From sequence record PZ445427.1: DNA of 64,000 nucleotides; one strand, given 5' to 3'. The position numbers and the translations under genes are program-made. The notes beneath the pieces were generated by a model. It did no database searches, had not been told where the DNA came from, and saw only the letters and a program-made list of their open reading frames with translations. Source of the DNA: a phage. Of the stretch, positions 40,035 to 51,689 are shown piece after piece (within the stretch, counting starts at the first letter, position 1; each line of letters begins with the position of its first letter).

Positions 40035-40039
40035 AATTT

Positions 40040-40117: not shown

Positions 40118-40134
40118 ATTAATTAGGAGACTAT

Positions 40135-40660: not shown

Positions 40661-40668
40661 GATTACAT

Positions 40669-40745: not shown

Positions 40746-40896
40746 AATTAAGGAAATAAAATGAAAGCTATTAAGAAAGCACTACGTAAATTTATGTACT
40801 GTCGTTTCCATAGTATTAAGGCTTCAACTAATGGTACGACTTACGATCGCTATGATCCTAAGTTTGGCTTACATTCTAAATAACTGGAGATAATAA

Positions 40897-41103: not shown

Positions 41104-41133
41104 CTCCTCCAAGCAGAAATTTTAAAAATGTAC

Positions 41134-41163
41134 TTGCTTTTTACTTAAGATTTCTGCTATAAT
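41134..41163 (+). promoter_or_regulatory. promoter cassette (TTGCTT-N18-TATAAT)
   Basis: upstream of 41194 gene. Confidence 0.55.
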
Positions 41164-41193
41164 AGTTATATAAATTGATGAAGGAGTTAACGA

Positions 41194-41469
41194 ATGTCAA
41201 AACGTGTTACTTCAACTGGTGTTGAAAGTGCTGTTTGTAAATCCTGGGGTGGCTGGGAAGGTGAGATTGAATGGCTTTATTTCTACGATGTAGAACTTCT
41301 GCCGGAAGTCAAAGCTAAATGTGTGGAAGCTGGTATGGCTCCTGATGCAAAGGCTGATATCGAAATCACCATGACTAAGCTAGAAGGTCGTGTAATTACG
41401 CTCAATGATGATTATGAAGAAGTGTTCGAGCTTCCATTCAAACTGAGTGTCACTCCTAGCTTCGAGTAA
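41194..41469 (+). CDS. hypothetical protein (91 aa)
   Basis: ORF after promoter. Confidence 0.5.
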   Translation: MSKRVTSTGVESAVCKSWGGWEGEIEWLYFYDVELLPEVKAKCVEAGMAPDAKADIEITMTKLEGRVITLNDDYEEVFELPFKLSVTPSFE

Positions 41470-41505
41470 CTGATATAGCACTGAGCAAGTTCTTTAAAAT
41501 TTGAC

Positions 41506-41534
41506 TTGCTCAGTCCTTCAAAACTTGATATAAT
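41506..41534 (+). promoter_or_regulatory. promoter cassette (TTGCTC-N17-TATAAT) driving tRNA-Tyr
   Basis: hexamers 41506-41511 / 41529-41534. Confidence 0.55.
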
Positions 41535-41599
41535 ATTTATCTAATTTGGAAACATATTTAAAAGTGTTTAAATGAGAATTTTTGAATACTTCTAAATAT

Positions 41600-41687
41600 G
41601 GGCGTTTATTCCGTAAGTGGTAGCGGAGGGGATTGTAAATCCCTGGTCATTGCGACTCGAGTGGTTCGACTCCATTAACGCCCACCA
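41600..41687 (+). tRNA. tRNA-Tyr (anticodon GUA), class II
   Basis: perfect acceptor GGGCGTT/AACGCCC; D-stem TCCG/CGGA; anticodon loop TTGTAAA; long variable arm; T-loop TTCGACT; CCA encoded. Confidence 0.75.
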
Positions 41688-41704
41688 AATTAAAGGTAAA
41701 GGAT

Positions 41705-42196
41705 ATGTATATTGATCGGATAATTCAAGAAGCTGCAAATAGGGGTATTATACAGTTGGGTTCACCCGCTGATATAAATAAAGATCTAATATTAGAAAGC
41801 CTCACATTTGGTACAGCTAACTTTGGTCGCGATAGTAATCGTCGATATAGCTTGAAGTTATCTGCACTATCTTTTATCAAGTATAACAAAAGTATTGGAG
41901 AAAAATCCAGCTGTGGTTTTATTTACGCAATAACTAACCCAGCTTGGGATAACTATGTAAAAATTGGTATGTCTTCTGATCCTAAAACAAGATTAAGAAA
42001 TTACCAAACCTATTCTCCTTTACGTGATTATAAGTTAATACATTGGTCATTCTGGTTTAATGCTAGAGAAGCGGAGAAAATGCTTCATAATAGCTTTCCT
42101 GAACGGCTTAACGAATGGGTAGTGTTAGACAGAGGTGTAGACGAAATACTTTCCGAGTTTAACAATTTATCCAATAAGCAATTTAAGTCCTGTTAG
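41705..42196 (+). CDS. T5orf172/GIY-YIG-like domain protein (putative homing-endonuclease-type)
   Basis: 163 aa; block GFIYAITNPAWDNYVKIGMS...RL..Y resembles GIY-YIG/T5orf172 core; 3' end overlaps tRNA-Glu by about 10 nt. Confidence 0.55.
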   Translation: MYIDRIIQEAANRGIIQLGSPADINKDLILESLTFGTANFGRDSNRRYSLKLSALSFIKYNKSIGEKSSCGFIYAITNPAWDNYVKIGMSSDPKTRLRNYQTYSPLRDYKLIHWSFWFNAREAEKMLHNSFPERLNEWVVLDRGVDEILSEFNNLSNKQFKSC

Positions 42197-42263
42197 ACAA
42201 ACTGGTAAAGTCACTACCCTTTCAAGGTAGGATTTGCGGGTTCGATCCCCGCACAGGACGCCA
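42187..42263 (+). tRNA. tRNA-Glu (anticodon UUC)
   Basis: acceptor GTCCTGT/ACAGGAC; anticodon stem CTACC/GGTAG loop CTTTCAA; T-arm GCGGG-TTCGATC-CCCGC; CCA encoded. Confidence 0.7.
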
Positions 42264-42272
42264 ATTTCTGCA

Positions 42273-42348
42273 TTCCTAGAGTGTTACTGGACAGCATGTC
42301 GGTCTCCAAAACCGTACGGTCTAGGTTCGAGTCCTAGTAGGTTTGCCA
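42273..42348 (+). other. tRNA-like element with Trp-type anticodon arm (CCA); possible degenerate tRNA
   Basis: anticodon arm CGGT-CTCCAAA-ACCG and T-arm CTAGG-TTCGAGT-CCTAG are canonical, but acceptor pairing is only 5/7. Confidence 0.35.
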
Positions 42349-42354
42349 ATATTT

Positions 42355-42429
42355 GCACCTTTAGCTGAGATGGATTAGCGCTTGCCTGAAGAGCTTGAGA
42401 GGTTCGTTCAATTCGAACAGGGTGCACCA
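42355..42429 (+). tRNA. tRNA, anticodon probably GAA (Phe); CUG not excluded
   Basis: acceptor GCACCTT/AGGGTGC; D-stem GCTG/TAGC; anticodon loop CTGAAGA with weak stem; T-arm GTTCG-TTCAATT-CGAAC; CCA encoded. Confidence 0.55.
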
Positions 42430-42448
42430 ATTAATCAATATAAGGCTT

Positions 42449-42829
42449 ATGGAAACAAAAACGTGTAATAAGTGTGGAAATACATTTCCCTTGAGTACGG
42501 ACTACTTCTTTAAAAGTGGTAAGCAAGTCTCAGGAAAACAAAAATGGAAACCTATGTGCAAACAATGCGAAAGTATATCTCGTATTGAATACTATAATAA
42601 TACAATTGCCGAGGTTTTTCCTGACTTACATTGTGCTATTTGTGGGTATAACAAGTGTCCACAGGCGATTGATTTCCATCATTTAGAGCAGGATGATAAA
42701 GAGTTTAATATTAGTGAAGCTAGACGGGGTACGTTTAACAAAGAAAAACTAATAGAAGAGCTTGAGAAATGTGTACCTTTATGCTGTAGGTGTCACAGAG
42801 AATATCATGCTGGAGTTATTGAGCTTTAA
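42449..42829 (+). CDS. HNH homing endonuclease
   Basis: HNH motif DFHHLEQDDKEFN...CCRCHREYH with Zn-binding Cys pairs; start placed after upstream tRNA. Confidence 0.75.
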   Translation: METKTCNKCGNTFPLSTDYFFKSGKQVSGKQKWKPMCKQCESISRIEYYNNTIAEVFPDLHCAICGYNKCPQAIDFHHLEQDDKEFNISEARRGTFNKEKLIEELEKCVPLCCRCHREYHAGVIEL

Positions 42830-42843
42830 ACTGAAAAATGTAG

Positions 42844-42872
42844 TTGCTTAAATCCTTAAAGTTCTGTATAAT
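42844..42872 (+). promoter_or_regulatory. promoter cassette (TTGCTT-N17-TATAAT)
   Basis: upstream of 42901 gene. Confidence 0.6.
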
Positions 42873-42900
42873 TATTATATAAATTGAACTGGAGAACTAG

Positions 42901-43089
42901 ATGAAAGCACCTAAACCGAAATTAGTTAAGTTCGACTGCTGTGACACTGAAATCTTATTTACTAAGTTTGGTGAATTTAAGATGTGTGAATGTGGAACAT
43001 GTGGTTATGATCATGGTGATGGATATTATTGCAGAACCCTCGGGCCTTCTGAACTAATCCACTTCTCATGGCCGGAAAGTAAAGAATAA
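42901..43089 (+). CDS. small Cys-rich protein (62 aa)
   Basis: CC...CEC..C...C pattern. Confidence 0.45.
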   Translation: MKAPKPKLVKFDCCDTEILFTKFGEFKMCECGTCGYDHGDGYYCRTLGPSELIHFSWPESKE

Positions 43090-43091
43090 TA

Positions 43092-43167
43092 CGACCGTTG
43101 GCTGAATGGCTTAGGCGGAGGCCTGCAAAACCTCCTTATGTGAGTTCGAATCTCATGCGGTCGTCCA
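43092..43167 (+). tRNA. tRNA-Cys (anticodon GCA)
   Basis: acceptor CGACCGT/GCGGTCG; anticodon loop CTGCAAA (stem GAGGC/ACCTC with one mismatch); T-arm GTGAG-TTCGAAT-CTCAT; CCA encoded. Confidence 0.6.
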
Positions 43168-43174
43168 AATTTTA

Positions 43175-43257
43175 GGGTCGTTAGCCAAGCGGTTTGGCGG
43201 TGGACTGTTAATCCATGTCGAAAGACAACGTAGGTTCGAATCCTACACGGCCCGCCA
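43175..43257 (+). tRNA. tRNA, anticodon GUU (Asn-type) with unusually long variable arm
   Basis: acceptor GGGTCGT/ACGGCCC; anticodon stem GTGGA/TCCAT loop CTGTTAA; 13-nt variable hairpin; T-arm GTAGG-TTCGAAT-CCTAC; CCA encoded. Confidence 0.55.
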
Positions 43258-43360
43258 TATTCTGTGTAGAGTTAAGTAAACCGGTAGCCAACCAGCTATC
43301 ATTGCTGATATCGAATTCAGTCACAGATACCATTTTTCATTAACAACTGAGGAAATAGAT

Positions 43361-43546
43361 ATGACAACTCGTGCAATTGCTCGACTAGAAGCTGATCGTG
43401 ATAGTCTGATTAATAATATTAAGGTTTGGGATCAAGAAATTGAAAACCAAAAACTGACATTAATTCAAGATATGCAACAACAGAATGCCCGTCGTGAAGC
43501 TCTAAAAGAGGTTGAGGAAGCTATCGAAAAACTCAAAACTGAGTAA
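43361..43546 (+). CDS. hypothetical coiled-coil protein (61 aa)
   Basis: ORF with SD GAGGAAATAG. Confidence 0.45.
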   Translation: MTTRAIARLEADRDSLINNIKVWDQEIENQKLTLIQDMQQQNARREALKEVEEAIEKLKTE

Positions 43547-43554
43547 ATAAATTA

Positions 43555-43632
43555 TGCGATCGGGGCTGGCTTGGTAATGGTACTCCCCTGTCACGGGAGA
43601 GAATGTGGGTTCGAATCCCATCGGTCGCGCCA
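43555..43632 (+). tRNA. tRNA-Asp (anticodon GUC)
   Basis: acceptor GCGATCC/CGGTCGC (6/7); anticodon stem CTCCC/GGGAG loop CTGTCAC; T-arm GTGGG-TTCGAAT-CCCAT; CCA encoded. Confidence 0.65.
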
Positions 43633-43638
43633 AATAAT

Positions 43639-43714
43639 ACATCCATAGCTCAATGGTTAGAGCTACCGCCTCTTAAGCGGAGGGTTCTAGGTTCAAGTCC
43701 TAGTGGGTGTACCA
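43639..43714 (+). tRNA. tRNA-Lys (anticodon CUU)
   Basis: acceptor ACATCCA/TGGGTGT; D-stem GCTC/GAGC; anticodon loop CTCTTAA; T-arm CTAGG-TTCAAGT-CCTAG; CCA encoded. Confidence 0.65.
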
Positions 43715-43794
43715 AACATCAGAGCAGCGTGATGTACTGCAAAGACCCAAAGTCCGGGGTGGACTTCTTGATTCAAAGGAGCAGGCATTAATTA

Positions 43795-43905
43795 TCATTC
43801 TAGCGTGGTGGAGAGGGGACACCAGCTTGCCGAGGGTAGAAGCTCGTTCGATTCGAGTGAAAGAATGGTTCTCGTAAATCCGCACAAGTGATAGTAGGTT
43901 CAAGT
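43795..43905 (+). other. unresolved tRNA-like structured segment
   Basis: contains T-arm-like GCTCG-TTCGATT-CGAGT and GTAGG-TTCAAGT-CCTAC but no acceptor pairing at tRNA spacing. Confidence 0.3.
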
Positions 43906-43927
43906 CCTACCTAGATTGACTCATTAT

Positions 43928-44001
43928 GCGTTCGTAGTTAAAAGGTATAATTTTTGGTTGCCAACCAGAAGTTGAGGGTTCGATTCCCTCCGACCGCACC
44001 A
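43928..44001 (+). tRNA. tRNA-Gly (anticodon GCC)
   Basis: acceptor GCGTTCG/CGACCGC (6/7); D-stem GTTA/TAAT; anticodon stem TTTGG/CCAGA loop TTGCCAA; T-arm GAGGG-TTCGATT-CCCTC; CCA encoded. Confidence 0.65.
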
Positions 44002-44249
44002 AATTTAGGTTTCTGCTTCCTAGAGAACTGACTCCTAGATAAACAAGGCGATGAGTTTCCGGCCGGTTCTAGTCGCTGAAAATCCTCCCGACCAGGTAGG
44101 TGTAAGTAAACGAAAGTTTACTTATTAAGTAAGTCCGACACATCGGCGGGTGTGTTCTAGTACTTAAAGAAGGTCTCGCAAACTTTCTCGCTAGCATGAG
44201 TTGATAGCTCGGTGACTTACCTAATAAGTAAATTTATTAAAAAATGTAG

Positions 44250-44278
44250 TTGCTATTTAGCTTAATTCTCTGTATAAT
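44250..44278 (+). promoter_or_regulatory. promoter cassette driving tRNA-Pro/CAU operon
   Basis: TTGCTA-N17-TATAAT. Confidence 0.6.
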
Positions 44279-44310
44279 ATATTTTATAAAGTGAGTTAAC
44301 AAAGAATATT

Positions 44311-44388
44311 CTCCGTGTAGCTCAGTTTGGCCAGAGCGTTTCGTTTGGGGCGATAGGGTCGGGGGTTCAAATCCTCCCACGGAGACCA
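44311..44388 (+). tRNA. tRNA-Pro (anticodon UGG)
   Basis: perfect acceptor CTCCGTG/CACGGAG; D-stem GCTC/GAGC; anticodon loop TTTGGGG; T-arm GGGGG-TTCAAAT-CCTCC; CCA encoded. Confidence 0.7.
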
Positions 44389-44394
44389 AACAAT

Positions 44395-44472
44395 TGCGGG
44401 TTAGATCTCTGGTAGAGATCGCTAGTCTCATAAGCTAGAAAGAGGTAGGTTCGATTCCTACACCCGCTTCCA
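44395..44472 (+). tRNA. tRNA with anticodon CAU (second copy; Met/fMet/Ile2 type)
   Basis: acceptor TGCGGGT/ACCCGCT (1:72 mismatch, as in initiator tRNAs); D-stem GATC/GATC; anticodon stem CTAGT/GCTAG loop CTCATAA; CCA encoded. Confidence 0.65.
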
Positions 44473-44493
44473 ATTTAATAGAAGGATTTCGAA

Positions 44494-44658
44494 ATGAAAT
44501 TATTTCGTTTAAAAGTAAGTGATCTACGTTCTAGCAAAGATCGTAAGAAGTATCCACTAGCCCATTACGGTAAAGATGAAAATGAAGTGATGGCGGAATT
44601 TGGTATTAATCATCCTTACTTGAAAGTTCACTCTATTAAAGAAGTATACATGTATTAA
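44494..44658 (+). CDS. hypothetical small protein (54 aa)
   Basis: ATG after AAGGATTTCGAA; below 60-aa threshold of ORF track. Confidence 0.35.
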   Translation: MKLFRLKVSDLRSSKDRKKYPLAHYGKDENEVMAEFGINHPYLKVHSIKEVYMY

Positions 44659-44660
44659 AT

Positions 44661-44738
44661 TGACCGTTAACTCAACTGGATAAGAGTACCGAGCTTTTAC
44701 CTCGTAGGTTCTGGGTTCGAATCCCAGACGGTCAACCA
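44661..44738 (+). tRNA. tRNA-Lys (anticodon UUU)
   Basis: perfect acceptor TGACCGT/ACGGTCA; D-stem ACTC/GAGT; anticodon loop CTTTTAC; T-arm CTGGG-TTCGAAT-CCCAG; CCA encoded. Confidence 0.65.
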
Positions 44739-44755
44739 ATTTAAAGGAATTTGTT

Positions 44756-45073
44756 ATGAATATTAACAAAGTTCTAGGAACAATATCAGAAATGTCTGGT
44801 AGAGCTGGAAAACGCTTTACTGAATTATGTATTAAAAATCAAAAAGTACCAGAACATCAATGTCATTATTGTCGAGACTGTGAACAATACCATGAAATGT
44901 GTGTGGTTGAAGATTGGGTCTGGGATCAGATAAGAAAAGAACAATCCAAAGATATTGTTCTATGTTTTACTTGTATGGAACGACGTTTAGGACGTAAAAT
45001 TACTCTTAAAGATCTTAAACATGTTCCCTGTAACGCTCCTTACTTCATTGGTTTTAGAATGGAGAGATTTTGA
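44756..45073 (+). CDS. Cys-rich protein (105 aa)
   Basis: CHYCRDC and CFTC clusters (Zn-binding likely). Confidence 0.5.
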   Translation: MNINKVLGTISEMSGRAGKRFTELCIKNQKVPEHQCHYCRDCEQYHEMCVVEDWVWDQIRKEQSKDIVLCFTCMERRLGRKITLKDLKHVPCNAPYFIGFRMERF

Positions 45074-45206
45074 TGATAATCTGGTTTTACTTAATGAAAC
45101 AAAAAGTCAAGCAGTACAACGTATTTTCTGCTGATTTTACTATTGGAATGTTCTTAGCGGGATTATGTGAGTTTCTGTTTGAAGCCTACATCATAGGAAG
45201 TCTTTT

Positions 45207-45280
45207 GCTCGGTTAGTTTAATGGGAGAACCCCGTCTTTACACGGCGGTTGCGATAGTTCGATTCTATCACCGAGTACCA
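45207..45280 (+). tRNA. tRNA-Val (anticodon UAC)
   Basis: acceptor GCTCGGT/ACCGAGT; anticodon stem CCGTC/GGCGG loop TTTACAC; T-arm GATAG-TTCGATT-CTATC; CCA encoded. Confidence 0.65.
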
Positions 45281-45299
45281 ATTAACTCAAAATAAGGAA

Positions 45300-45659
45300 T
45301 TGCAAATGCAATTATCAAGCAAGGTTCAAGGCTATTTCGGGCATGTAACAATGGAGTTCGCTATCTCTAAAGGTTGGGACTTCGAACAAGATCTAGCTGA
45401 ATTCTACAAAGATATTGATCTGAATGTACCGTACATAGGACTCTCTACTGGTCAAGAGATCACAGAAGGCGATGTGTTCAAGGCAAGTCAAGGTGAGGTA
45501 ACACCTAGTTTTGCCGAGTTCTGGTTAGGTATTACTTTGAAAGAAGATGCACCGGATGGTGGTGTGGTTATGCAGAGTATGCACTCTGGAAGCTCTGACT
45601 ACCTTTTCGTTAGTGACGTTAAGGAAATACAAGAAATCTGCAAAAATGTACTTGCTTGA
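45300..45659 (+). CDS. hypothetical protein (119 aa)
   Basis: ORF. Confidence 0.5.
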   Translation: MQMQLSSKVQGYFGHVTMEFAISKGWDFEQDLAEFYKDIDLNVPYIGLSTGQEITEGDVFKASQGEVTPSFAEFWLGITLKEDAPDGGVVMQSMHSGSSDYLFVSDVKEIQEICKNVLA

Positions 45660-45680
45660 TGCTTAATTTCTTGTTATAAT
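45652..45680 (+). promoter_or_regulatory. promoter cassette followed by about 245-nt leader
   Basis: TTGCTT-N17-TATAAT; next ATG only at 45924. Confidence 0.55.
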
Positions 45681-45923
45681 ATTTATATAAATTGATGGGG
45701 AGAAATCCTCATCAAAGTTCACTAAGGTATTAGCTCGACCTAGGACTGGCTGCCAAAAAGCACGATCCCTACGACTTGGGAGAAGTTCTAGATTAGTCCA
45801 CTAGATTCAGTGGCAACTGAATAGTGTATCGGGTTTGTGAAGAGCGGTTATCCTCTACTGGCTAATGTCTGAGGGTAATACGCACACCGAGCTAATAGCC
45901 TTAGTAAACTAGAAGGAATATCT

Positions 45924-46187
45924 ATGTTTGATCTTAAAGATATGGCTAAGAAACTAATGTCGCAACGTTATCAACAAAGAACCCTCCATAAACGAGTTTC
46001 CGATATGAAGAAACGTTGCAATAATGCTAAGTATTATAATAGTCTTAATAAACTATCTGATGTAGATCTTGCTAAAACTGAAGCAATATATAATCACTTA
46101 GTAGTAGAATCTGATATAGTGAATAAAGATATTGCTAGGCTAGAAGCTCAGATTGTAGCAACTGTTCTCGATATGTATAGAGAATAA
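45924..46187 (+). CDS. hypothetical protein (87 aa)
   Basis: ORF with SD AGAAGGAATATC. Confidence 0.5.
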   Translation: MFDLKDMAKKLMSQRYQQRTLHKRVSDMKKRCNNAKYYNSLNKLSDVDLAKTEAIYNHLVVESDIVNKDIARLEAQIVATVLDMYRE

Positions 46188-46196
46188 ATAAATTTT

Positions 46197-46275
46197 GGGG
46201 AATGGGTCTGCATGGAGTGGACACCTCGCTTGCACCGAGGACATCAGAACGGTTCGATTCCGTTATTCTCCACCA
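46197..46275 (+). tRNA. tRNA-Ala (anticodon UGC), copy 1
   Basis: acceptor GGGGAAT/ATTCTCC with G3-U70; anticodon stem CCTCG/CGAGG loop CTTGCAC; T-arm AACGG-TTCGATT-CCGTT; CCA encoded. Confidence 0.55.
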
Positions 46276-46281
46276 AAATTC

Positions 46282-46357
46282 GGGGTCATAGGTTATTTGG
46301 TTAAACTTACTGCCTTGCAAGCAGTGGAACTCAGTTCAATTCTGAGTGACTCCACCA
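46282..46357 (+). tRNA. tRNA-Ala (anticodon UGC), copy 2
   Basis: acceptor GGGGTCA/TGACTCC with G3-U70; anticodon stem ACTGC/GCAGT loop CTTGCAA; T-arm CTCAG-TTCAATT-CTGAG; CCA encoded. Confidence 0.7.
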
Positions 46358-46376
46358 AACAAATTAAGGAAATAAT

Positions 46377-46595
46377 ATGGTATTCTTAGCAGCCTCTGTA
46401 GTTCTTGCAGCTTTAGCACTAGCTATCTATTTTAGAACTATTAAAGATTTAGCTAAAGAAAAGAAAACTTTCTTTACTGATTATTCTTGGGGCGCTCCAT
46501 ATACCGTCCGCTTTATCAGCTTAGAAGCTATGCTGATAATGGTATTCAGTGGTATAGGTTCCGTTGTTACAGGGTTACTATTTATTTCTAACTAA
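46377..46595 (+). CDS. small membrane protein (72 aa)
   Basis: two hydrophobic helices. Confidence 0.5.
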   Translation: MVFLAASVVLAALALAIYFRTIKDLAKEKKTFFTDYSWGAPYTVRFISLEAMLIMVFSGIGSVVTGLLFISN

Positions 46596-46602
46596 ATAAA
46601 AT

Positions 46603-46683
46603 GGGGATGTGGCGAAATTGGCAGACGCGCTAGATTTAGGCTCTAGTCTTCGGGTGTGGGTTCGAGTCCCTCCATCCCTACCA
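46603..46683 (+). tRNA. tRNA-Leu (anticodon UAG), class II
   Basis: acceptor GGGGATG/CATCCCT; Leu-type D-arm GGCGAAATTGGCAGACGCGC; anticodon stem CTAGA/TCTAG loop TTTAGGC; CCA encoded. Confidence 0.65.
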
Positions 46684-46857
46684 AACATTGGATTAACTCA
46701 TGATGAAAACTCCTATAACTGATATCTGGTTAGCTGTTAATACATTAACTAAAGAGTATGTGTTTATAGAGTATGGTCAGAGGTATGACCAAAAGATGTA
46801 TAATCTCATACTTCCAGTATCCGCTAATGAAGTTTATGATTTAATCCTGAGATCTAC

Positions 46858-46948
46858 GGAAGAGCAAATCGATTAGGTGACGAAAACCGCTTGGAAAGTG
46901 GCTGACTGGTAAAACGGCTTGAGAGTTCGAATCTCTCTTCTTCCGCCA
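46858..46948 (+). tRNA. tRNA-Ser (anticodon GGA), class II
   Basis: acceptor GGAAGAG/TTCTTCC; anticodon loop TTGGAAA; long variable arm; T-arm GAGAG-TTCGAAT-CTCTC; CCA encoded. Confidence 0.55.
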
Positions 46949-46970
46949 AACAACTTACTAGGAAACTAAT

Positions 46971-47327
46971 ATGTCAGAAGTGACAATCTATAATGAAATG
47001 CTTGGCAAAATTTTTACTAGTGTATGCCAAGACCAAGATACTCTTATCTTCATTTGTACTGATGGTAAGAACTATAAGTTTTATCATGAGCAGGACTGCT
47101 GTGAAGATGTTCATATAGATGATATTATTGGTGATTTACATGACCTTTTAGGTTATCCAATCATAGAAGCAGAGGAAGTAATCACACACGCTACAGAAGA
47201 TTGGGATTCAGTAACCCATACATGGTATAAGTTTGCCACAGCTAAAGGCTGTGTAACCGTTAAATGGCATGGTTCTAGTAATGGTTATTACTCTGAATCT
47301 GTAAACTTTGTAATATACGAACAATAG
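46971..47327 (+). CDS. hypothetical protein (118 aa)
   Basis: ORF; stop overlaps start of next tRNA by 2 nt. Confidence 0.5.
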   Translation: MSEVTIYNEMLGKIFTSVCQDQDTLIFICTDGKNYKFYHEQDCCEDVHIDDIIGDLHDLLGYPIIEAEEVITHATEDWDSVTHTWYKFATAKGCVTVKWHGSSNGYYSESVNFVIYEQ

Positions 47328-47415
47328 AAGATAGGACGTAGTGGTACGTAACCGGTCTTGAAAACCGGCCCGCTGTAGTGATATGGTGATGGTTCGACTC
47401 CATTATCTTCTGCCA
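47326..47415 (+). tRNA. tRNA-Ser (anticodon UGA), class II
   Basis: perfect acceptor AGAAGAT/ATCTTCT; anticodon stem CCGGT/ACCGG loop CTTGAAA; long variable arm; T-arm GATGG-TTCGACT-CCATT; CCA encoded. Confidence 0.7.
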
Positions 47416-47560
47416 AATCTTGAAGTATGCCGGAATCGGTAGACGGGGCTTCCTAAAGGGCGTAAGGGGAACATCCACTCCTCATAAGATACCCGAAAAC
47501 GAGGCTGAGATAAATGGTCTATCTCGTGAAGGTTCAAGTCCTTCTGCTTCTTGATATTCA
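47416..47560 (+). other. unresolved tRNA-like structured segment
   Basis: Leu-type D-arm-like CCGGAATCGGTAGACGGGG and T-arm GAAGG-TTCAAGT-CCTTC, but no acceptor or anticodon arm at tRNA spacing. Confidence 0.3.
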
Positions 47561-47773
47561 ATGGCTCAAAGAGTAACGGTGCACCTTTCTAGAGAATTTC
47601 CTGGGCGAGAATCCAGGTGTAATCAACTAGTTGTTAGTGTGATGAGTTTCGGAGAGCCGCCACAATTGAAAATTCGTACTCGTCTTGAGCTTCGTGCAAT
47701 AGAAGATAACTTGATTAGTATTCTAGAAAATGCTATTTGAGGATGGTTTCGCTAACCCTGCGAGTTTTCAATT

Positions 47774-47850
47774 GTGGCTATATCATAATTGGTTAATGAT
47801 CCTGATTGTGAATCAGGCCTATGTGGATTCGAGTTCCACTAGCCACCCCA
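47774..47850 (+). tRNA. tRNA-His (anticodon GUG)
   Basis: perfect acceptor GTGGCTA/TAGCCAC; D-stem TCAT/ATGA; anticodon stem CCTGA/TCAGG loop TTGTGAA; CCA encoded. Confidence 0.75.
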
Positions 47851-47856
47851 AATATT

Positions 47857-47931
47857 GCGTCCTTATTTCAACGGAAAGAATGTAAAGCTACGAACTTTAC
47901 GATCGGGGTTCGATTCCCTGAGGATGCACCA
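47857..47931 (+). tRNA. tRNA-Arg (anticodon ACG)
   Basis: acceptor GCGTCCT/AGGATGC; anticodon stem GTAAAG/CTTTAC loop CTACGAA; T-arm CGGGG-TTCGATT-CCCTG; CCA encoded. Confidence 0.65.
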
Positions 47932-47954
47932 ATTAACTTAAACAGGAAAATAAT

Positions 47955-48156
47955 AATGGCTGATTTCTGTAAAGAATGCTCTATCGATATGTGGGGCAAA
48001 GATACACAAGATCTTTCTGGTCTTATCACTGAAGCCGAGGTTAAAGAGGGCTACGGTGCTGTAGTAATCTGCGAAGGTTGTGGTATTATCCGTGTTGATC
48101 ATGAAGGCAAACGCCTTGAAGAACCTGAGCCAATCGCAACGGTTCCTGTAGAGTAA
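47955..48156 (+). CDS. small Cys-rich protein (67 aa)
   Basis: start placed after tRNAs (ORF 47821 otherwise overlaps two tRNAs); CxxC...CxxC. Confidence 0.45.
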
Positions 48157-48164
48157 AGAATTAT

Positions 48165-48240
48165 TGGGATGTAGATCAATTGGCAGATCGTCGGCCTCTG
48201 ACTCCGAAGGTTCCACGTTCGATCCGTGGCATCCCAGCCA
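48165..48240 (+). tRNA. tRNA-Gln (anticodon CUG)
   Basis: perfect acceptor TGGGATG/CATCCCA with U1-A72 and G73 (Gln-like); D-stem GATC/GATC; anticodon loop CTCTGAC; CCA encoded. Confidence 0.7.
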
Positions 48241-48246
48241 AACAAT

Positions 48247-48322
48247 TGGAGAGTAGTGTAACGGTTAGCACAACGGCCTTTGACTCCGTTAATGGTAGGT
48301 TCGATTCCTCCTTCTCCAGCCA
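48247..48322 (+). tRNA. tRNA-Gln (anticodon UUG)
   Basis: acceptor TGGAGAG/TTCTCCA, G73; anticodon loop CTTTGAC; T-loop TTCGATT; CCA encoded. Confidence 0.65.
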
Positions 48323-48328
48323 ATTTAT

Positions 48329-48403
48329 GCGTGATTAGTTCAGTGGCTAGAATAACTGGCTTCCAACCAGTAGACACGAGTTCGACTCTCGTATCCCGCA
48401 CCA
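48329..48403 (+). tRNA. tRNA-Gly (anticodon UCC)
   Basis: acceptor GCGTGAT/ATCCCGC (6/7); D-stem GTTC/GAAT; anticodon stem ACTGG/CCAGT loop CTTCCAA; CCA encoded. Confidence 0.65.
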
Positions 48404-48419
48404 AATATAAGGAAACGTT

Positions 48420-48662
48420 ATGGACGTTTTTGAGTTTCGTAATAAAAGCCCCAATAGGCGCGTTTTGATTATTGGTGAAACATATCGAGCTTATGAGCAA
48501 GAAGATGGTTCGGTTTTACTAAACGATGAAAAGCAAGGTTATAGCTTTTATCCAGAAGAAACGTATGAAGAATTTCGTACCAAGTTTCTCTTACCAGACT
48601 GGCTAGCAGTAGCCGAGCAACGAGAATCCGAAGATGGCAGAAAACCTAAAATTAAAGGTTGA
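48420..48662 (+). CDS. hypothetical protein (80 aa)
   Basis: ORF with SD AAGGAAACG. Confidence 0.5.
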   Translation: MDVFEFRNKSPNRRVLIIGETYRAYEQEDGSVLLNDEKQGYSFYPEETYEEFRTKFLLPDWLAVAEQRESEDGRKPKIKG

Positions 48663-48785
48663 CAAACAAAAGAAATACGTTGAGGTTGAATTAGGCGAAG
48701 AACGCTTAAAGCTATCCTTCGAGTTTCTTCAGCAGTTGGCGATGACAGTAATGTCTGATAAGTCTCCTGTATTTGAGAAAGAAAT

Positions 48786-48808
48786 CCCGTTGAAATGACG
48801 GGTTTATT
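48786..48808 (+). terminator. hairpin CCCGT-TGAAATGA-ACGGG followed by TTTATT
   Basis: directly upstream of tRNA-Thr; may be terminator or processing signal. Confidence 0.35.
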
Positions 48809-48883
48809 GCTCCTAAAGCATTGCTGGCGATGCAGTTGCCTTGTAAGCATCTGAACCGGGTTCGATTCCTGGTGGGAGCACCA
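48809..48883 (+). tRNA. tRNA-Thr (anticodon UGU)
   Basis: acceptor GCTCCTA/TGGGAGC; D-stem GCAT/ATGC; anticodon loop CTTGTAA; T-arm CCGGG-TTCGATT-CCTGG; CCA encoded. Confidence 0.65.
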
Positions 48884-48898
48884 AATTTAAAAATTCAT

Positions 48899-48927
48899 TT
48901 GCCTTCTCTCTTATTTCTTGTTATAAT
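48899..48927 (+). promoter_or_regulatory. promoter cassette (TTGCCT-N17-TATAAT)
   Basis: followed by AATTAATGAGAGGGAAACC leader and ATG 48958. Confidence 0.55.
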
Positions 48928-48957
48928 ATTTATATAAATTAATGAGAGGGAAACCAA

Positions 48958-49251
48958 ATGAAACGTTATCTTTCTGTCGTATTCCAAACGGGTGGTCAAC
49001 GCTACACTTACGAATTTCCTGAGTCTTGGAAAATCAAAGAGGGTGATCAAGTTGTTGTGTTAACACCTCGTGAAGGCTTCAAAGTAGTAACGGTTAAACA
49101 AGTATTTCCAAAAGATCACGAACCATCTAAGTCTCTTAACTATAAGATGATTCATGGTCTGGTACGAAAAGTACCTAGAACAGAAGTCGAAGTAGATAAA
49201 ACTGGAGAAGCTAAATACCAGTATACCTCTTACTTAGACGAAATGATGTAA
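48958..49251 (+). CDS. hypothetical protein (97 aa)
   Basis: ORF after promoter. Confidence 0.5.
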   Translation: MKRYLSVVFQTGGQRYTYEFPESWKIKEGDQVVVLTPREGFKVVTVKQVFPKDHEPSKSLNYKMIHGLVRKVPRTEVEVDKTGEAKYQYTSYLDEMM

Positions 49252-49252
49252 T

Positions 49253-49328
49253 GCTCCGATAGTTCAAACGGTTAGAACAGGCGACCGATAATCGTCAAAT
49301 CTTGGTTCGATCCCAAGTCGGAGTACCA
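49253..49328 (+). tRNA. tRNA-Ile (anticodon GAU)
   Basis: acceptor GCTCCGA/TCGGAGT; D-stem GTTC/GAAC; anticodon stem GGCGA/TCGTC loop CCGATAA; T-arm CTTGG-TTCGATC-CCAAG; CCA encoded. Confidence 0.7.
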
Positions 49329-49334
49329 AATTAT

Positions 49335-49407
49335 AGTTAGTTGGCAGAGTGGTTATGCACCTCCTTCATACGGAGTGACTACAGTGGTTCAAATCCACTA
49401 CTAACTA
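49335..49407 (+). tRNA. tRNA with anticodon CAU (third copy); CCA not encoded
   Basis: perfect acceptor AGTTAGT/ACTAACT; anticodon loop TTCATAC; T-arm AGTGG-TTCAAAT-CCACT; 3' end followed by CTA. Confidence 0.55.
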
Positions 49408-49779
49408 CTAAACAGAGGATCAGGTCATTGTACCAGATCCTGCTGAGAAGAGAGTCCACATTCTATAAATGGCCGGGCGTGACAGCAGGAAGTAGACTGC
49501 AACTCCATGCTATCCAGGAGTATAAATGTAGAAGCTAGGACTTTAGATAGCCATTGTCTTAGCGTGAGCAATCACGTAGTTGCAACAGACCTGGAAGATC
49601 GCAACGTTAAAATCAAAGTTCCAGTGCTTATTTATCTAATCGAGACCATCAATCTCACCGGAATGCTAGCACCCCAACAGTAGCTAGTGATTAGATAATA
49701 AGCAAGCCTGCCTTCCAGTTTTTATCTTGCTTCTGGGTTAACAAAAAGCTGAGCCAAATTCTAACATCAGGGAGATCTA

Positions 49780-50148
49780 ATGAAAGCATATCAAAGTCTT
49801 AAGTCTGGCGTAATTAACATTGTTCATAACAATCAGATCATTCAACTATATTCTAAAGATGGTGAACTTAAACAGAAAGTTCTAGTCGAAGATCTAGAAG
49901 GTATCACACCTCACTTTGACCCTGAGGCCTTTCGCATTGTAGATGTGGAAGTGGTTCCTCAAGTCGAGGGTGGTCAGCACCTAAATGTCAATGTGTTAAG
50001 CCGTGATCAGCTTTTGGATGCACAGAAACATCCTGAAAAATATCCTCAGTTGACCATCCGTGTCTCTGGCTATGCTGTTCGATTTAACGCATTGACGCGT
50101 GAACAACAGAACGACGTTATTAGTCGTACATTTACTCAGGCGATATAA
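49780..50148 (+). CDS. autonomous glycyl-radical cofactor (GrcA/YfiD-like)
   Basis: 122 aa; C-terminal glycyl-radical signature [25 protein letters not shown]. Confidence 0.7.
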
Positions 50149-50229
50149 TGGGGTTTGGATACGATTTCTCCCAGCTACGCAAGGTAGTCGAGCAAACTCC
50201 ATTTATCTCCCAAGTTTTAGGAGAAATGT

Positions 50230-50529
50230 GTGGATCGAGCATTAAGACGCCATCACCGGCAACGTGTGAAAAACAACCGAAAGAAGTATTGGACAGTATT
50301 CCCTCATGAAGAAAGTCCTAAGCGGTTAGGCATTATTACTACCACGCCTTGCATCTGTTCTTGTTGGATGTGTGGGAATCCTCGCAAATACTATAAGAAT
50401 AGTAAAGCAGGTATGAAAATCTCGGAGATTAAAAAGATGGATGCAATGATTATGGGCACCACCTTTACAGGTGGTATCTCTGATGAATTCGACGGTTTTG
50501 TAACTCAAGATATTGTTGAAATTATCTAA
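50230..50529 (+). CDS. short radical-SAM-like protein, possible glycyl-radical activase (NrdG/PflA-like core)
   Basis: 99 aa; CxxxCxxC (CICSCWMC) preceded by Gly/Thr-rich strand and followed by GGISDE (compare GGEP of activases). Confidence 0.4.
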   Translation: MDRALRRHHRQRVKNNRKKYWTVFPHEESPKRLGIITTTPCICSCWMCGNPRKYYKNSKAGMKISEIKKMDAMIMGTTFTGGISDEFDGFVTQDIVEII

Positions 50530-50537
50530 TTAATAAT

Positions 50538-50575
50538 AAACCCCAGCTATTGAATAAGTAGTCTGGGGTTTTCTT
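50538..50575 (+). terminator. rho-independent terminator
   Basis: AACCCCAG...CTGGGGTT hairpin followed by TTCTTG. Confidence 0.55.
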
Positions 50576-50593
50576 GTATGTAGGATTTTCGAA

Positions 50594-50779
50594 ATGAAAA
50601 TTTTTAAAGTGAACTATAGAGGCCTGTGGTTAGGTGGTACAGCTATTGTTGTTGCGGAAACTGCGGAAGAAGCAATCGAACTGGCTAGAAACCATAGAAG
50701 TTCTATAGAGTTCGAAGATGCGAGGGTAGAAGAACTCCCAAGCAGTGGGGTAGTATACAACGACAACGGAGATTACTAA
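50594..50779 (+). CDS. hypothetical protein (61 aa)
   Basis: ORF. Confidence 0.45.
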   Translation: MKIFKVNYRGLWLGGTAIVVAETAEEAIELARNHRSSIEFEDARVEELPSSGVVYNDNGDY

Positions 50780-50837
50780 TGTTATATTTTGAAGTTCGTC
50801 CACATTAAGTTAATTCAAAAGACTTAATGGAGGTAAT

Positions 50838-51185
50838 ATGAGCCGTACTTATCGTAAACAATCTGGTGATCAGTGGTGGAAATCAAAAGCTAAGTATACT
50901 CAGGAGTACACTCTCCTCAAAGGTAGTGGCTACTGGATTCGAGTTACTTACGCTAAATCCTGGGATGAAGTAGAGCAGGAAATGAAGGAAGCAACTATCC
51001 GCAACGAGAAAAAGGATGGTTACAACTGGGATTCTGTTAGCAAGAATGTTAAGTGGCATTCTAACAAAATGGTTCGTCAAGGGAATCGTCAAGAACTCCA
51101 CCGTGTAATGAGAGATCCAGAAAATTACGACTATAATCGCGACCATGACATGCGTAAGCGTGGTTTATGGTGGTGCTACGACTAA
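50838..51185 (+). CDS. hypothetical protein (115 aa)
   Basis: ORF with SD GGAGGTAATATG. Confidence 0.5.
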   Translation: MSRTYRKQSGDQWWKSKAKYTQEYTLLKGSGYWIRVTYAKSWDEVEQEMKEATIRNEKKDGYNWDSVSKNVKWHSNKMVRQGNRQELHRVMRDPENYDYNRDHDMRKRGLWWCYD

Positions 51186-51191
51186 GGAAAT

Positions 51192-51689
51192 ATGGAAACC
51201 TGGAAAGACATAACAGGTTTTGAGGGTAAATACCAGATATCTAATAAGGGGAATGTCTCTAGTTATTTATCTGGTAAAATTCTCAAACCCCAAGTAAATA
51301 GACAAGGGTATCTTGTCATCAACCTATATTATGAAGTAGGTAAAGCTAGAAAATTTAGGATACACAGACTTGTAGCTGAGCACTTTATACCTAATCCAGA
51401 TAATAAACCCTTCGTTAATCATCTGGATGGTGATAAGTCAAATAATGACGAGGATAACCTAGAATGGAGCACCTCGGAAGAGAATAATAGACATGCCCGT
51501 GAAAATGGTTTAGCTAATTGGGCGAAAGGGGAACAGCATGGTAGGTGTAAACTATCTGATGCAGATATCTTTTGGATAAGAAGTCATTATCAGCCAAGAA
51601 ACCGAGAATTTGGTCAAGCTGCTTTAGCTAGGATGTTCGGTGTAAGTCAACCTCACATATCGTATATAATTAACGGGCATAAAAGGTAA
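51192..51689 (+). CDS. HNH homing endonuclease (NUMOD4-HNH type)
   Basis: N-terminal FEGKYQISNKGNV; HNH region HRLVAEHF...NHLDGDKSNNDEDNLEW. Confidence 0.7.
   Translation: METWKDITGFEGKYQISNKGNVSSYLSGKILKPQVNRQGYLVINLYYEVGKARKFRIHRLVAEHFIPNPDNKPFVNHLDGDKSNNDEDNLEWSTSEENNRHARENGLANWAKGEQHGRCKLSDADIFWIRSHYQPRNREFGQAALARMFGVSQPHISYIINGHKR

What the first reader, a model, noticed from the sequence alone, without database searches (positions are those of the whole stretch)
49408..50575. Glycyl-radical cofactor gene followed by a 99-aa radical-SAM-like mini-protein, far from nrdD, which has no adjacent activase
Seen in sequence: 49780..50148 ends in an RVSGY...RT glycyl-radical signature (GrcA/YfiD-like). 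The next ORF (50230..50529) is only 99 aa but carries CxxxCxxC (CICSCWMC) and a GGISDE segment reminiscent of glycyl-radical activating enzymes, which are normally at least 150 aa. The class III RNR gene nrdD (19125..20999) has its own glycyl-radical C-terminus but no nrdG-like gene beside it. A 370-nt ORF-free stretch (49408-49779) precedes the pair. Inference: the phage may carry a minimal activase and a spare glycyl-radical domain to service NrdD or host enzymes.
Basis: partly seen in the sequence, partly recalled or inferred. Interest (0 to 1): 0.6.

Follow-up and report, generated by a model that had tools for sequence, protein, structure and literature searches.

The report
Phage GrcA spare part; no mini-activase
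This T5-like phage carries an already known "spare part" for the host's oxygen-damaged pyruvate formate-lyase, and the small gene next to it is not a miniature activating enzyme but belongs to a large uncharacterised family of small cysteine-motif proteins; the non-coding stretch in front of the pair holds a possibly new structured RNA.

Summary
The window is a T5-like phage (Demerecviridae), 98.5% identical to Escherichia phage SpoonbillGilly.

- **GrcA gene (49780..50148).** It is a genuine autonomous glycyl-radical cofactor. It is 52% identical over its full length to the T4-type vs.6/Y06I protein, and its C-terminal domain is PFL-type, not NrdD-type. This is already known and already annotated in related phages.
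- **99-aa ORF (50230..50529).** It is a real gene but not a radical-SAM enzyme.
  - It has no radical-SAM HMM match.
  - The first Cys of "CxxxCxxC" is kept in only 42 of 119 relatives; the conserved motif is CxCxxC plus His.
  - "GGISDE" lies in an indel-variable segment.
  - The predicted fold is all-helical.
  - Relatives outside T5-like phages never sit near a glycyl-radical gene.
- **NrdD (19125..20999).** It is intact and has no NrdG anywhere in the closest complete genome. This is a published pattern for T5-like phages, and host NrdG probably activates it.

Two side results are new. A 61-nt RNA with two hairpins and a covarying loop-loop helix (49502..49562) recurs in Demerecviridae tRNA arrays and has no Rfam match. 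The 99-aa family is also enriched inside phage tRNA arrays.

The main finding is ordinary. The side results are of moderate interest.

The parts
49253..49408 (+). tRNA-Ile(GAT) and tRNA-Met(CAT), the last two of 29 tRNA genes in the window's array (34483..49408)
   Evidence: ARAGORN; Rfam tRNA at 58.9 and 52.5 bits
49413..49445 (+). Hairpin directly after tRNA-Met, inside the lineage-specific insert
   Evidence: MFE -14.4 kcal/mol, z=-3.2. Phage S124 carries two compensatory changes and one mismatch relative to the window (alignment A3, read by eye).
49502..49562 (+). Candidate structured RNA with three helices. Hairpin C is 49502-06 with 49517-21. Hairpin B is 49535-40 with 49557-62. The loop-loop (kissing/pseudoknot) helix A is 49509-14 with 49546-50 and 49552.
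   Evidence: RNAalifold predicts hairpins C and B. With helix A added, 98-98.6% of cells pair, 6 of 17 pairs show compensatory change, 0 of 500 shuffles reach the score, and slid controls pair at 28-41%. The covariance model finds one copy in the window (93.6 bits) and detects the unseeded DU_PP_V copy (61.9 bits). There is no Rfam match at E<=10.
49696..49779 (+). Conserved 5' leader of grcA with Shine-Dalgarno GGGAG (49770-49774)
   Evidence: The last 84, 40 or 26 nt are the only part of the gap shared by most T5-like phages. Sequence read.
49780..50148 (+). grcA-like gene: autonomous glycyl-radical cofactor, 122 aa, radical glycine G97 (codon 50068-50070)
   Evidence: Pfam Gly_radical E=4e-18; NCBIfam GrcA families at 116-118 bits, below their cutoffs; PDB 6owr E=2e-29; 52% identity over full length to RB3 vs.6, annotated GrcA, E=1e-39
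50148..50309 (+). 53-aa ORF called by some annotators; probably not a gene
   Evidence: Where it overlaps the 99-aa ORF, 18 of 23 variable sites fall on the third codon position of the 99-aa frame and 19 of 24 on the first position of this frame. The non-overlapping part shows no third-position bias.
50230..50529 (+). 99-aa gene (T5 ORF053/T5.055 family, PHROG 4499): small basic protein with conserved His and a CxCxxC motif; not a radical-SAM enzyme
   Evidence: PHROG 4499 E=1.8e-38. Profile search finds 2148 cluster representatives; the 150 best listed are 69-183 aa. Conservation table. AF2 model pLDDT 73.6, all helical. No Pfam, NCBIfam or PADLOC family.
50538..50576 (+). Intrinsic-terminator-like hairpin (CCCCAG...CUGGGG) followed by UUUUCUU, closing the grcA-ORF99 unit
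   Evidence: MFE -19.7 kcal/mol, z=-3.9
19125..20999 (-). nrdD, class III ribonucleotide reductase without an ATP-cone and with no cognate nrdG in the phage
   Evidence: It is 54% identical to E. coli NrdD, with a nearly identical C-terminal glycyl-radical segment. No NrdG by tblastn in the window or in the full SpoonbillGilly genome.

Best explanation
Window 49408-50575 is the downstream edge of the tRNA gene array of a T5-like phage. It holds three unrelated things.

- By analogy with the tested E. coli and T4 proteins, host pyruvate formate-lyase activase (PflA) would put a radical on Gly97.
- The small protein would then replace the C-terminal radical domain that oxygen cleaves off host PflB. 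That would keep fermentative acetyl-CoA and formate production running in micro-oxic infected cells.
- The homology is shown here. The activation and rescue steps are inferred.

**2. The 99-aa gene (50230..50529).** It is co-transcribed with grcA up to a terminator at about 50540-50576.
- It belongs to a large uncharacterised family of small, arginine-rich, helical proteins.
- The family signature is RAxRRHHxxRLKxxR...TPxxCSCWMCGNPRK.
- It is most likely a metal-binding (Cys3-His) nucleic-acid-binding protein. That role is inferred.
- It is not an activase, and its adjacency to grcA is synteny specific to T5-like phages.

**3. The 370-nt gap.** It is a mosaic insert that contains a conserved 61-nt structured RNA.

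**NrdD.** The phage NrdD is most likely activated by host NrdG. This is inferred from the lack of any phage activase, 54% identity to host NrdD, and a near-identical radical loop.
For: - **Phage identity.**
- **GrcA.**. Relatives are already annotated 'grcA' or 'glycyl radical cofactor'. The T4 Y06I biochemistry is Wagner et al. 2001, cited in PMC12338860.
- **GrcA is PFL-type, not NrdD-type.**
- **The 99-aa ORF is a real gene.** Variable sites show third-codon-position bias, and distant homologs exist.
- **It is not radical SAM.**, with NrdG as positive control.
- **No linkage to glycyl-radical genes elsewhere.**
- **Terminator.**
- **No phage NrdG.**. The NrdG query is validated against T4 nrdG and others.
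- **Published pattern.** PMC3653736 states that many phages carry only nrdD along with nrdAB, and separately cites SPC35, EPS7 and T5 for phoH lying between their class III and class I genes.
- **NrdD resembles the host enzyme.**
Against: - No experiment exists on the T5-like GrcA itself.
- It scores below the NCBIfam GrcA equivalog cutoffs (118 against 170), because its N-terminal half follows the T4 type.
- The metal-binding and nucleic-acid-binding role of the 99-aa protein rests only on composition and motif.
  - The AF2 model has moderate confidence (pLDDT 73.6, pTM 0.41).
  - A conserved 3-Cys motif could in principle bind an Fe-S cluster.
- From my memory of the T4 literature, T4 NrdD needs its own NrdG. 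Activation of T5 NrdD by host NrdG is therefore plausible but unproven.
The NrdG query was 153/154 identical to an annotated E. coli NrdG.
Confidence: 0.8

Rival explanations
1. One reading: the 99-aa protein is a minimal radical-SAM activase that installs the glycyl radical on the adjacent GrcA-like protein and/or on phage NrdD.
For: - The window protein contains C-x3-C-x2-C (C41, C45, C48) and a GGISDE string.
- It is co-oriented and probably co-transcribed with grcA.
- The phage has no NrdG.
- Three cysteines are nearly invariant in the family.
Against: - No radical-SAM, Fer4_12, NrdG or PflA HMM match appears even at E<=1. The only hit is a chance-level HxsC match (E=0.09, 11.6 bits against a 268 cutoff).
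- C41 is present in only 42 of 119 relatives, and the conserved spacing is CxCxxC.
- GGISDE is absent from close relatives.
- The family median length is 84 aa.
- The predicted fold is all helical, with none of the beta strands a radical-SAM barrel needs.
- There is no fold match in the PDB.
- Relatives in 52 non-T5 viral loci have no glycyl-radical enzyme or activase within 4 kb. In both the viral and the 80 bacterial loci, no neighbour protein recurs beyond groups of related contigs.
Confidence: 0.03
2. The 99-aa protein family acts on tRNAs or tRNA precursors, for example in binding, processing or protection from host anticodon nucleases. That would explain why it sits at the edge of the tRNA array here; its position next to grcA is incidental.
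For: - 12 of 37 de-replicated non-T5 viral locus clusters have tRNA genes within 4 kb, and 8 have three or more. Among 120 random viral loci the figures are 6 and 0 (Fisher p=4e-5 and 5e-6).
- In six independent clusters the nearest tRNA is 13-94 nt away on the same strand.
- In Rhizobium phage TM39 the gene lies inside the tRNA array.
- Erwinia phage Simmy50 gp88 lies about 540 nt downstream of an RNA 2'-phosphotransferase gene.
- The protein is very basic, with a Cys/His motif.
Against: - Two thirds of viral loci have no nearby tRNA, and only 4 of 80 bacterial loci do.
- tRNA arrays are known hotspots for small accessory ORFs, so the enrichment may reflect insertion tolerance rather than function.
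- The control is not matched for genome size. For contigs of 50 kb or more it is about 7 of 21 against 2 of 18 of the first 80 control loci, by my count.
- No biochemical evidence exists.
Confidence: 0.2
3. The phage GrcA-like protein does not rescue PFL. Instead it acts as a decoy that titrates host PflA, or docks on PflB or TdcE to shut down or redirect host fermentation.
For: - The C-terminal domain is about 80% identical to those of host GrcA and PflB, by my reading of the alignments. It should therefore bind the same partners.
- The N-terminal half differs from host GrcA and follows the T4 type.
Against: - The radical glycine and the whole RVSGYAVRF motif are intact.
- The homologous T4 protein was shown to reconstitute PFL activity (Wagner et al. 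2001, cited in PMC12338860).
Confidence: 0.07

Closest known systems
Autonomous glycyl-radical cofactor GrcA (YfiD) of E. coli and Y06I/vs.6 of phage T4
   Same: - It is a small stand-alone protein of 122 aa.
- Its C-terminal 60-70 residues are a PFL-type glycyl-radical domain with the RVSGYAVRF motif.
- It is 52% identical over its full length to the T4-type protein.
- Relatives occur in 1582 phage records, mostly T4-like and T5-like phages of enterobacteria.
   Different: - The N-terminal half is not recognisably like E. coli GrcA, so the protein falls below the NCBIfam equivalog cutoffs.
- In T5-like phages the gene sits at the end of the tRNA array. In T4-like phages it sits in the vs cluster near regB.
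- The T5-like protein itself has not been tested.
Glycyl-radical activating enzymes NrdG and PflA (radical SAM)
   Same: The window's 99-aa protein happens to contain a C-x3-C-x2-C string and a GG-containing segment.
   Different: - There is no profile match, and the first Cys is not conserved.
- The predicted fold is all helical.
- The protein is half the minimum size of these enzymes.
- It has no genomic association with glycyl-radical enzymes outside T5-like phages.
PHROG 4499 / T5 ORF053 (T5.055), a family of unknown function
   Same: The 99-aa protein is a full-length member, at E=1.8e-38, and the T5 homolog is P0058 or P0068.
   Different: - This work shows the family is far larger than the T5 group. 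There are 2148 representatives at 50% clustering, in many phage lineages and in bacteria.
- It has a defined His/CxCxxC signature.
- It is enriched in phage tRNA arrays.
Small stable RNAs encoded inside the phage T4 tRNA gene cluster (rnaC and rnaD, 'species 1 and 2'); recalled from memory, not checked here
   Same: The candidate RNA is a non-tRNA structured RNA. It lies within a phage tRNA array, on the same strand, shortly downstream of a tRNA, and so is presumably released from the same precursor transcript.
   Different: - There is no sequence relationship.
- The 61-nt motif here has two hairpins joined by a 6-bp loop-loop helix.
- Its expression and stability are untested.
- It is not in Rfam.

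Membership tests
Autonomous glycyl-radical cofactor (GrcA/YfiD/T4 Y06I) | C-terminal PFL-type glycyl-radical domain with an RVSGY motif | tested here: met
   Pfam Gly_radical E=4e-18; 6owr E=2e-29 and PFL 1h16 E=1.6e-26, with [10 protein letters not shown] identical
Autonomous glycyl-radical cofactor (GrcA/YfiD/T4 Y06I) | Small stand-alone protein without the PFL barrel or catalytic Cys pair | tested here: met
   122 aa. Only residues 61-121 align to PFL residues 698-758.
Autonomous glycyl-radical cofactor (GrcA/YfiD/T4 Y06I) | Score above the curated NCBIfam equivalog cutoff | tested here: not met
   TIGR04365 at 118.3 against 170; GrcA3 at 116 against 158; GrcA2 at 90 against 145. Only the C-terminal half matches.
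Autonomous glycyl-radical cofactor (GrcA/YfiD/T4 Y06I) | Full-length homology to the phage T4-type protein (vs.6/Y06I), which has been characterised biochemically | tested here: met
   52% identity over 122 aa to RB3 vs.6, annotated GrcA, E=1e-39. The biochemistry is cited in PMC12338860.
Autonomous glycyl-radical cofactor (GrcA/YfiD/T4 Y06I) | Radical installed by PflA; restores activity of oxygen-cleaved PflB | not testable with these tools
   Needs anaerobic biochemistry
Radical-SAM glycyl-radical activases (NrdG/PflA) | Match to radical-SAM, Fer4_12 or NrdG/PflA profiles | tested here: not met
   No Pfam family at E<=1. The only NCBIfam hit is chance-level (HxsC, E=0.09). The E. coli NrdG control gives Fer4_12 at E=2.3e-56.
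Radical-SAM glycyl-radical activases (NrdG/PflA) | Conserved CX3CX2C triad binding the [4Fe-4S] cluster | tested here: not met
   C41 is present in 42 of 119 relatives. CxxxCxxC occurs in 42 of 119 and CxCxxC in 116 of 119.
Radical-SAM glycyl-radical activases (NrdG/PflA) | Partial (beta/alpha) TIM-barrel fold, at least about 150 aa | tested here: not met
   The AF2 model built on 119 sequences has pLDDT 73.6, four helices and no strands. Family median length is 84 aa. No PDB fold match.
Radical-SAM glycyl-radical activases (NrdG/PflA) | Conserved glycine-rich SAM-binding motif | tested here: not met
   GGISDE lies in an indel-variable region missing from close relatives and in a segment with pLDDT below 50.
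Radical-SAM glycyl-radical activases (NrdG/PflA) | Genomic association with a glycyl-radical enzyme | tested here: not met
   GrcA is adjacent only in the 28 T5-like loci. None of 52 other viral loci has GrcA, NrdD, NrdG or PflA within 4 kb.
Class III ribonucleotide reductase system (NrdD + NrdG) | NrdD catalytic subunit with Zn-ribbon and glycyl-radical loop | tested here: met
Class III ribonucleotide reductase system (NrdD + NrdG) | Cognate activase NrdG encoded by the same genome | tested here: not met
   tblastn with E. coli NrdG against the window and the complete SpoonbillGilly genome gives a best E of 0.5. None is annotated.
Any Rfam family (for the 49502..49562 RNA) | Covariance-model match | tested here: not met
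   cmscan of 49200..49900 at E<=10 returns only the two tRNAs plus chance hits

The most novel reading that the evidence does not exclude
The downstream edge of the tRNA array may carry two unrecognised array-associated elements, both serving phage tRNA biology (precursor processing, stability, or protection against host tRNA-targeting defences).

1. A new structured RNA family at 49502..49562. It has two hairpins locked by a covarying 6-bp loop-loop helix. It is conserved across at least three Demerecviridae genera and always lies 50-180 nt downstream of a tRNA.
2. A small Cys3-His protein family, represented by the 99-aa ORF, that is recurrently embedded in the tRNA arrays of unrelated large phages.

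I put the probability that the RNA motif alone is a genuine functional structured RNA at about 0.6.
Probability: 0.2. Interest if true: 0.6.

Novelty: already known. Interest (0 to 1): 0.3.

Why it matters
The headline claim does not hold. A 99-residue radical-SAM activase would have been remarkable.

What remains of the main finding is textbook material. T-even and T5-like coliphages carry a GrcA spare part, presumably to keep host pyruvate formate-lyase working when oxygen intrudes. T5-like phages also carry NrdD without NrdG, which implies reliance on the host activase.

Two by-products are worth recording:
- **A candidate new RNA motif.** It is covariation-supported, lies in Demerecviridae tRNA arrays, and is absent from Rfam.
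- **A very large uncharacterised family of small Cys/His proteins.** It has no Pfam model and is statistically enriched inside phage tRNA arrays.

Both offer concrete handles on the largely unexplored non-tRNA content of phage tRNA islands.

Tried and rejected
- **Radical-SAM reading of the 99-aa ORF.** Rejected by Pfam, NCBIfam, PADLOC and PDB sequence and profile searches, by fold prediction and Foldseek, by family conservation, and by gene context.
- **afdb50 fold search.** The library was unavailable.
- **Guilt by association for the 99-aa family.** Neighbour clustering in 52 viral and 80 bacterial loci found no recurrent partner protein beyond closely related contigs. Cluster member names were all absent or 'hypothetical protein'.
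- **The 53-aa ORF at 50148..50309, called in some GenBank records.** Rejected as coding on the codon-position pattern of its variable sites.
- **The 58-aa ORF at 49507..49683.** It is frameshifted in relatives and unrelated to the ORF that fills the same slot in phage ende.
- **Promoter scan of the gap.** It gave only weak sigma-70-like sites at chance frequency.
- **Possible NrdG vestige.** The 93-aa ORF just downstream of nrdD (18745..19026, minus strand) shares a 22-residue stretch with NrdG residues 87-108 (pairwise E=2e-4). It has no Pfam or NCBIfam hit at E<=10, and its only homologs are T5-like proteins with no domain. I did not adopt this reading.
- **Looking for distant copies of the RNA motif.** Pattern scans of viral and metagenome contigs found only Demerecviridae-type copies.
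- **Literature.** Searches found nothing on the 99-aa family or on the RNA motif.
Full report
**Identity of the window.** The region 49300..51300 is 98.5% identical to Escherichia phage SpoonbillGilly. It is 90-98% identical to hundreds of Epseptimavirus and Tequintavirus (T5-like, Demerecviridae) genomes (taxonomy). The window carries 29 tRNA genes between 34483 and 49408, all on the plus strand. The finding therefore sits at the downstream edge of the T5-type tRNA array.

**The GrcA-like gene.**
- ORF 49780..50148 (122 aa) matches Pfam Gly_radical at E=4e-18 over residues 62-103.
- It also matches the NCBIfam GrcA, GrcA2 and GrcA3 models and the PFL models through its C-terminal 60 residues, but below the GrcA equivalog cutoffs (118 against 170 bits).
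- Against solved structures, the best hits are E. coli GrcA (6owr, E=2e-29) and the last 61 residues of pyruvate formate-lyase (E=1.6e-26). The [10 protein letters not shown] radical motif is identical in these alignments.
- The radical glycine is G97, at codon 50068-50070.
- Over its whole length the protein is 52% identical (E=1e-39) to vs.6 of T4-like phage RB3, which is annotated as GrcA.
- tblastn finds relatives in 1582 phage records. The T5-like records carry products such as 'pyruvate formate-lyase', '2-ketobutyrate formate-lyase', 'grcA' or 'glycyl radical cofactor'.
- The T4 protein Y06I and E. coli YfiD were shown to act as autonomous glycyl-radical cofactors that rebuild oxygen-fragmented PFL. 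The source is Wagner et al. 2001, as cited in PMC12338860.
- The protein shows no similarity to the phage's own NrdD (E=17), so its client is PFL-type, not NrdD.

**The 99-aa ORF is a real gene.**
- It has a GTG start at 50230, preceded by AGGAG at a 6-nt spacing.
- In 29 T5-like sequences (21 distinct) across its first 27 codons, where it overlaps the 53-aa ORF, 18 of 23 variable sites fall on its third codon positions.
- The overlapping 53-aa ORF (50148..50309), which some annotators call instead, takes those same changes on its first codon positions. It is therefore probably spurious.
- The protein matches PHROG 4499, a family of unknown function, at E=1.8e-38. It corresponds to T5 ORF053/T5.055.

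**The 99-aa ORF is not a radical-SAM enzyme.**
- No Pfam family appears at E<=1. The only NCBIfam hit is a chance-level HxsC match (E=0.09, 11.6 bits against a 268-bit cutoff).
- In the same kind of scan, E. coli NrdG gives Fer4_12 at E=2.3e-56.
- A profile search of 1.84 billion representatives finds 2148 relatives at E<=1e-3. The 150 best listed are 69-183 aa long.
- In an alignment of 119 of them, the nearly invariant positions are R6, R7, H9, R12, R17, T39, C43, S44, C45, C48, G49, N50, R52 and E66.
  - The family signature is RAxRRHHxxRLKxxR...TPxxCSCWMCGNPRK...TxQE.
  - CxCxxC is present in 116 of 119.
- GGISDE lies in a segment that is deleted or replaced even among T5-like relatives.
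- AlphaFold2 with this alignment gives a moderate-confidence model (pLDDT 73.6) of four helices and no strands. The GGISDE segment falls below pLDDT 50.
- Foldseek finds no solved structure and returns only the protein's own family among viral models.
- A PDB profile search and PADLOC find nothing.

**Gene context of the 99-aa family.**
- Of 80 viral loci encoding relatives, only the 28 T5-like ones have GrcA next door. The other 52 have no GrcA, NrdD, NrdG or PflA within 4 kb.
- No other neighbour protein recurs beyond groups of related contigs, in either viral or bacterial loci.
- The same holds in annotated genomes: Erwinia phage Simmy50, Rhizobium phage TM39 and Psychrobacter phage D'Alembert.
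- The grcA-ORF99 adjacency is therefore synteny specific to T5-like phages.
- The pair ends at a terminator-like hairpin, 50538-50571, followed by UUUUCUU.

**NrdD and the missing activase.**
- NrdD (19125..20999, minus strand) is intact.
- It is 54% identical to E. coli NrdD, aligning from E. coli residue 113 onward, so it lacks the ATP-cone.
- Its C-terminal VTRRVCGYLG.P.ARPFN.GKQ.EV..RVKH segment is almost identical to the host's.
- Its neighbours are small ORFs, Sir2, a HAD-like protein, PhoH, NrdA and NrdB.
- tblastn with E. coli NrdG finds nothing in the window or in the complete SpoonbillGilly genome, with a best E of 0.5.
  - The same query retrieves T4 nrdG and 2273 phage records.
- The only CxxxCxxC strings in ORFs of 40 aa or more are the 99-aa ORF, an HNH-like ORF, and short unannotated ORFs of 41-148 aa.
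- Dwivedi et al. (PMC3653736) already noted that many phages carry nrdD with nrdAB but no nrdG. [quoted passage not shown]
- Reliance on host NrdG is the simplest inference.

**The 370-nt gap.**
- It is a mosaic slot. Only its last 26-84 nt, the grcA leader with Shine-Dalgarno GGGAG, are shared by most T5-like phages.
- In T5 proper, grcA starts 13 nt after tRNA-Met.
- Phage ende has a different small ORF in the slot.
- The 58-aa ORF at 49507..49683 is frameshifted in relatives.

**A candidate structured RNA inside the gap.**
- A 63-nt core is conserved in 226 phage records. Every record examined (about 40 listed) is a Demerecviridae-sized genome or is classified there: Epseptimavirus, Sugarlandvirus, Hongcheonvirus and phage Eos.
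- RNAalifold predicts two hairpins. I added a loop-loop helix between them.
- Counted on 9 and then on 13 distinct sequences, the three-helix structure is 98-98.6% paired.
  - 6 of 17 pairs show compensatory changes, spread over all three helices.
  - 0 of 500 column shuffles reach the observed covariation.
  - Slid controls pair at 28-41%.
- The G-U pairs fit only the plus strand.
- A covariance model finds one copy in the window, at 49500..49565 with 93.6 bits. It also recovers a divergent copy that was not in its seed, at 61.9 bits.
- Every copy examined lies in a tRNA array, on the tRNA strand, 50-180 nt downstream of tRNA-Met or tRNA-Val. That includes three metagenomic copies.
- Rfam has no match.
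- Caveats: the sequences are few and related, the number of independent substitution events is small, and expression is untested.

**A second side result: the 99-aa family and tRNA arrays.**
- 12 of 37 de-replicated non-T5 viral locus clusters have tRNA genes within 4 kb, and 8 have three or more. Among 120 random viral loci, 6 have one or more and none has three or more (p=4e-5 and 5e-6).
- In six clusters the nearest tRNA is 13-94 nt away on the same strand.
- Bacterial copies show no such association, at 4 of 80 loci.
- The control is not matched for genome size, and tRNA arrays tolerate small inserts. I treat this as a lead, not a conclusion.

**Verdict.**
- The sequence features are there.
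- The 'spare glycyl-radical domain' reading is right but already known.
- The 'minimal activase' reading fails every defining test I could run.
- The missing NrdG is a known property of T5-like phages.
- The finding as stated is ordinary. The RNA motif and the tRNA-array-associated small-protein family are the only parts that might repay further work.

Noticed in passing
window 49502..49562 (+): A conserved 61-nt candidate structured RNA with two hairpins and a covarying 6-bp loop-loop helix. It appears in 226 phage records, Demerecviridae where checked, always in the tRNA array downstream of tRNA-Met or tRNA-Val. It has no Rfam match.
   Followed up: yes
window 50230..50529 and loci L037-L088, L007: The 99-aa protein family has 2148 representatives and no Pfam model. 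It is enriched in phage tRNA arrays: 12 of 37 locus clusters have tRNAs within 4 kb against 6 of 120 random loci. In six clusters the nearest tRNA is under 100 nt away on the same strand. Bacterial copies show no such link.
   Followed up: partly
window 49413..49445 (+): A stable hairpin lies right after tRNA-Met (z=-3.2). In phage S124 it shows two compensatory changes and one mismatch, read by eye from alignment A3. A second small hairpin, GCAG/CUGC at about 49490-49505, also changes compensatorily to GCGG/CCGC.
   Followed up: partly
window 50175..50229 (+): About 55 nt upstream of the 99-aa ORF are almost invariant across 21 distinct T5-like sequences. The stretch contains UCUCC...GGAGA, which could pair with the Shine-Dalgarno sequence, so it may be a translational control element (pairing read by eye).
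   Followed up: no
window 18745..19026 (-): The 93-aa ORF immediately downstream of nrdD, where nrdG sits in E. coli, shares a 22-residue stretch with NrdG residues 87-108 (41% identity, pairwise E=2e-4). It has no HMM support, and its only homologs are T5-like proteins with no domain. A possible NrdG vestige; unresolved.
   Followed up: partly
window 19125..20999 (-): The phage NrdD lacks the N-terminal ATP-cone. The alignment to E. coli NrdD starts at host residue 113, and the NCBIfam model match starts at position 87.
   Followed up: no
window 51192..51689 (+): A NUMOD4 + HNH_3 homing-endonuclease gene lies just downstream of the locus. It is absent from many otherwise collinear relatives, whose matches stop at query position 1886.
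   Followed up: no
loci L062, L064, L065, L078, L084 (about 5640-6020): One lineage of large uncultured phages that encodes the 99-aa family inside its tRNA array also carries a tRNA with anticodon CUA. ARAGORN calls it tRNA-Pyl, which makes it an amber-suppressor candidate and hints at stop-codon recoding.
   Followed up: no
GenBank OR851003.1 (3544-bp record named Salmonella phage S.Kent 1-2-1): This record encodes an NrdG 94% identical to E. coli NrdG. It is probably a host-derived contig in a fragmented phage submission, not a phage nrdG.
   Followed up: no
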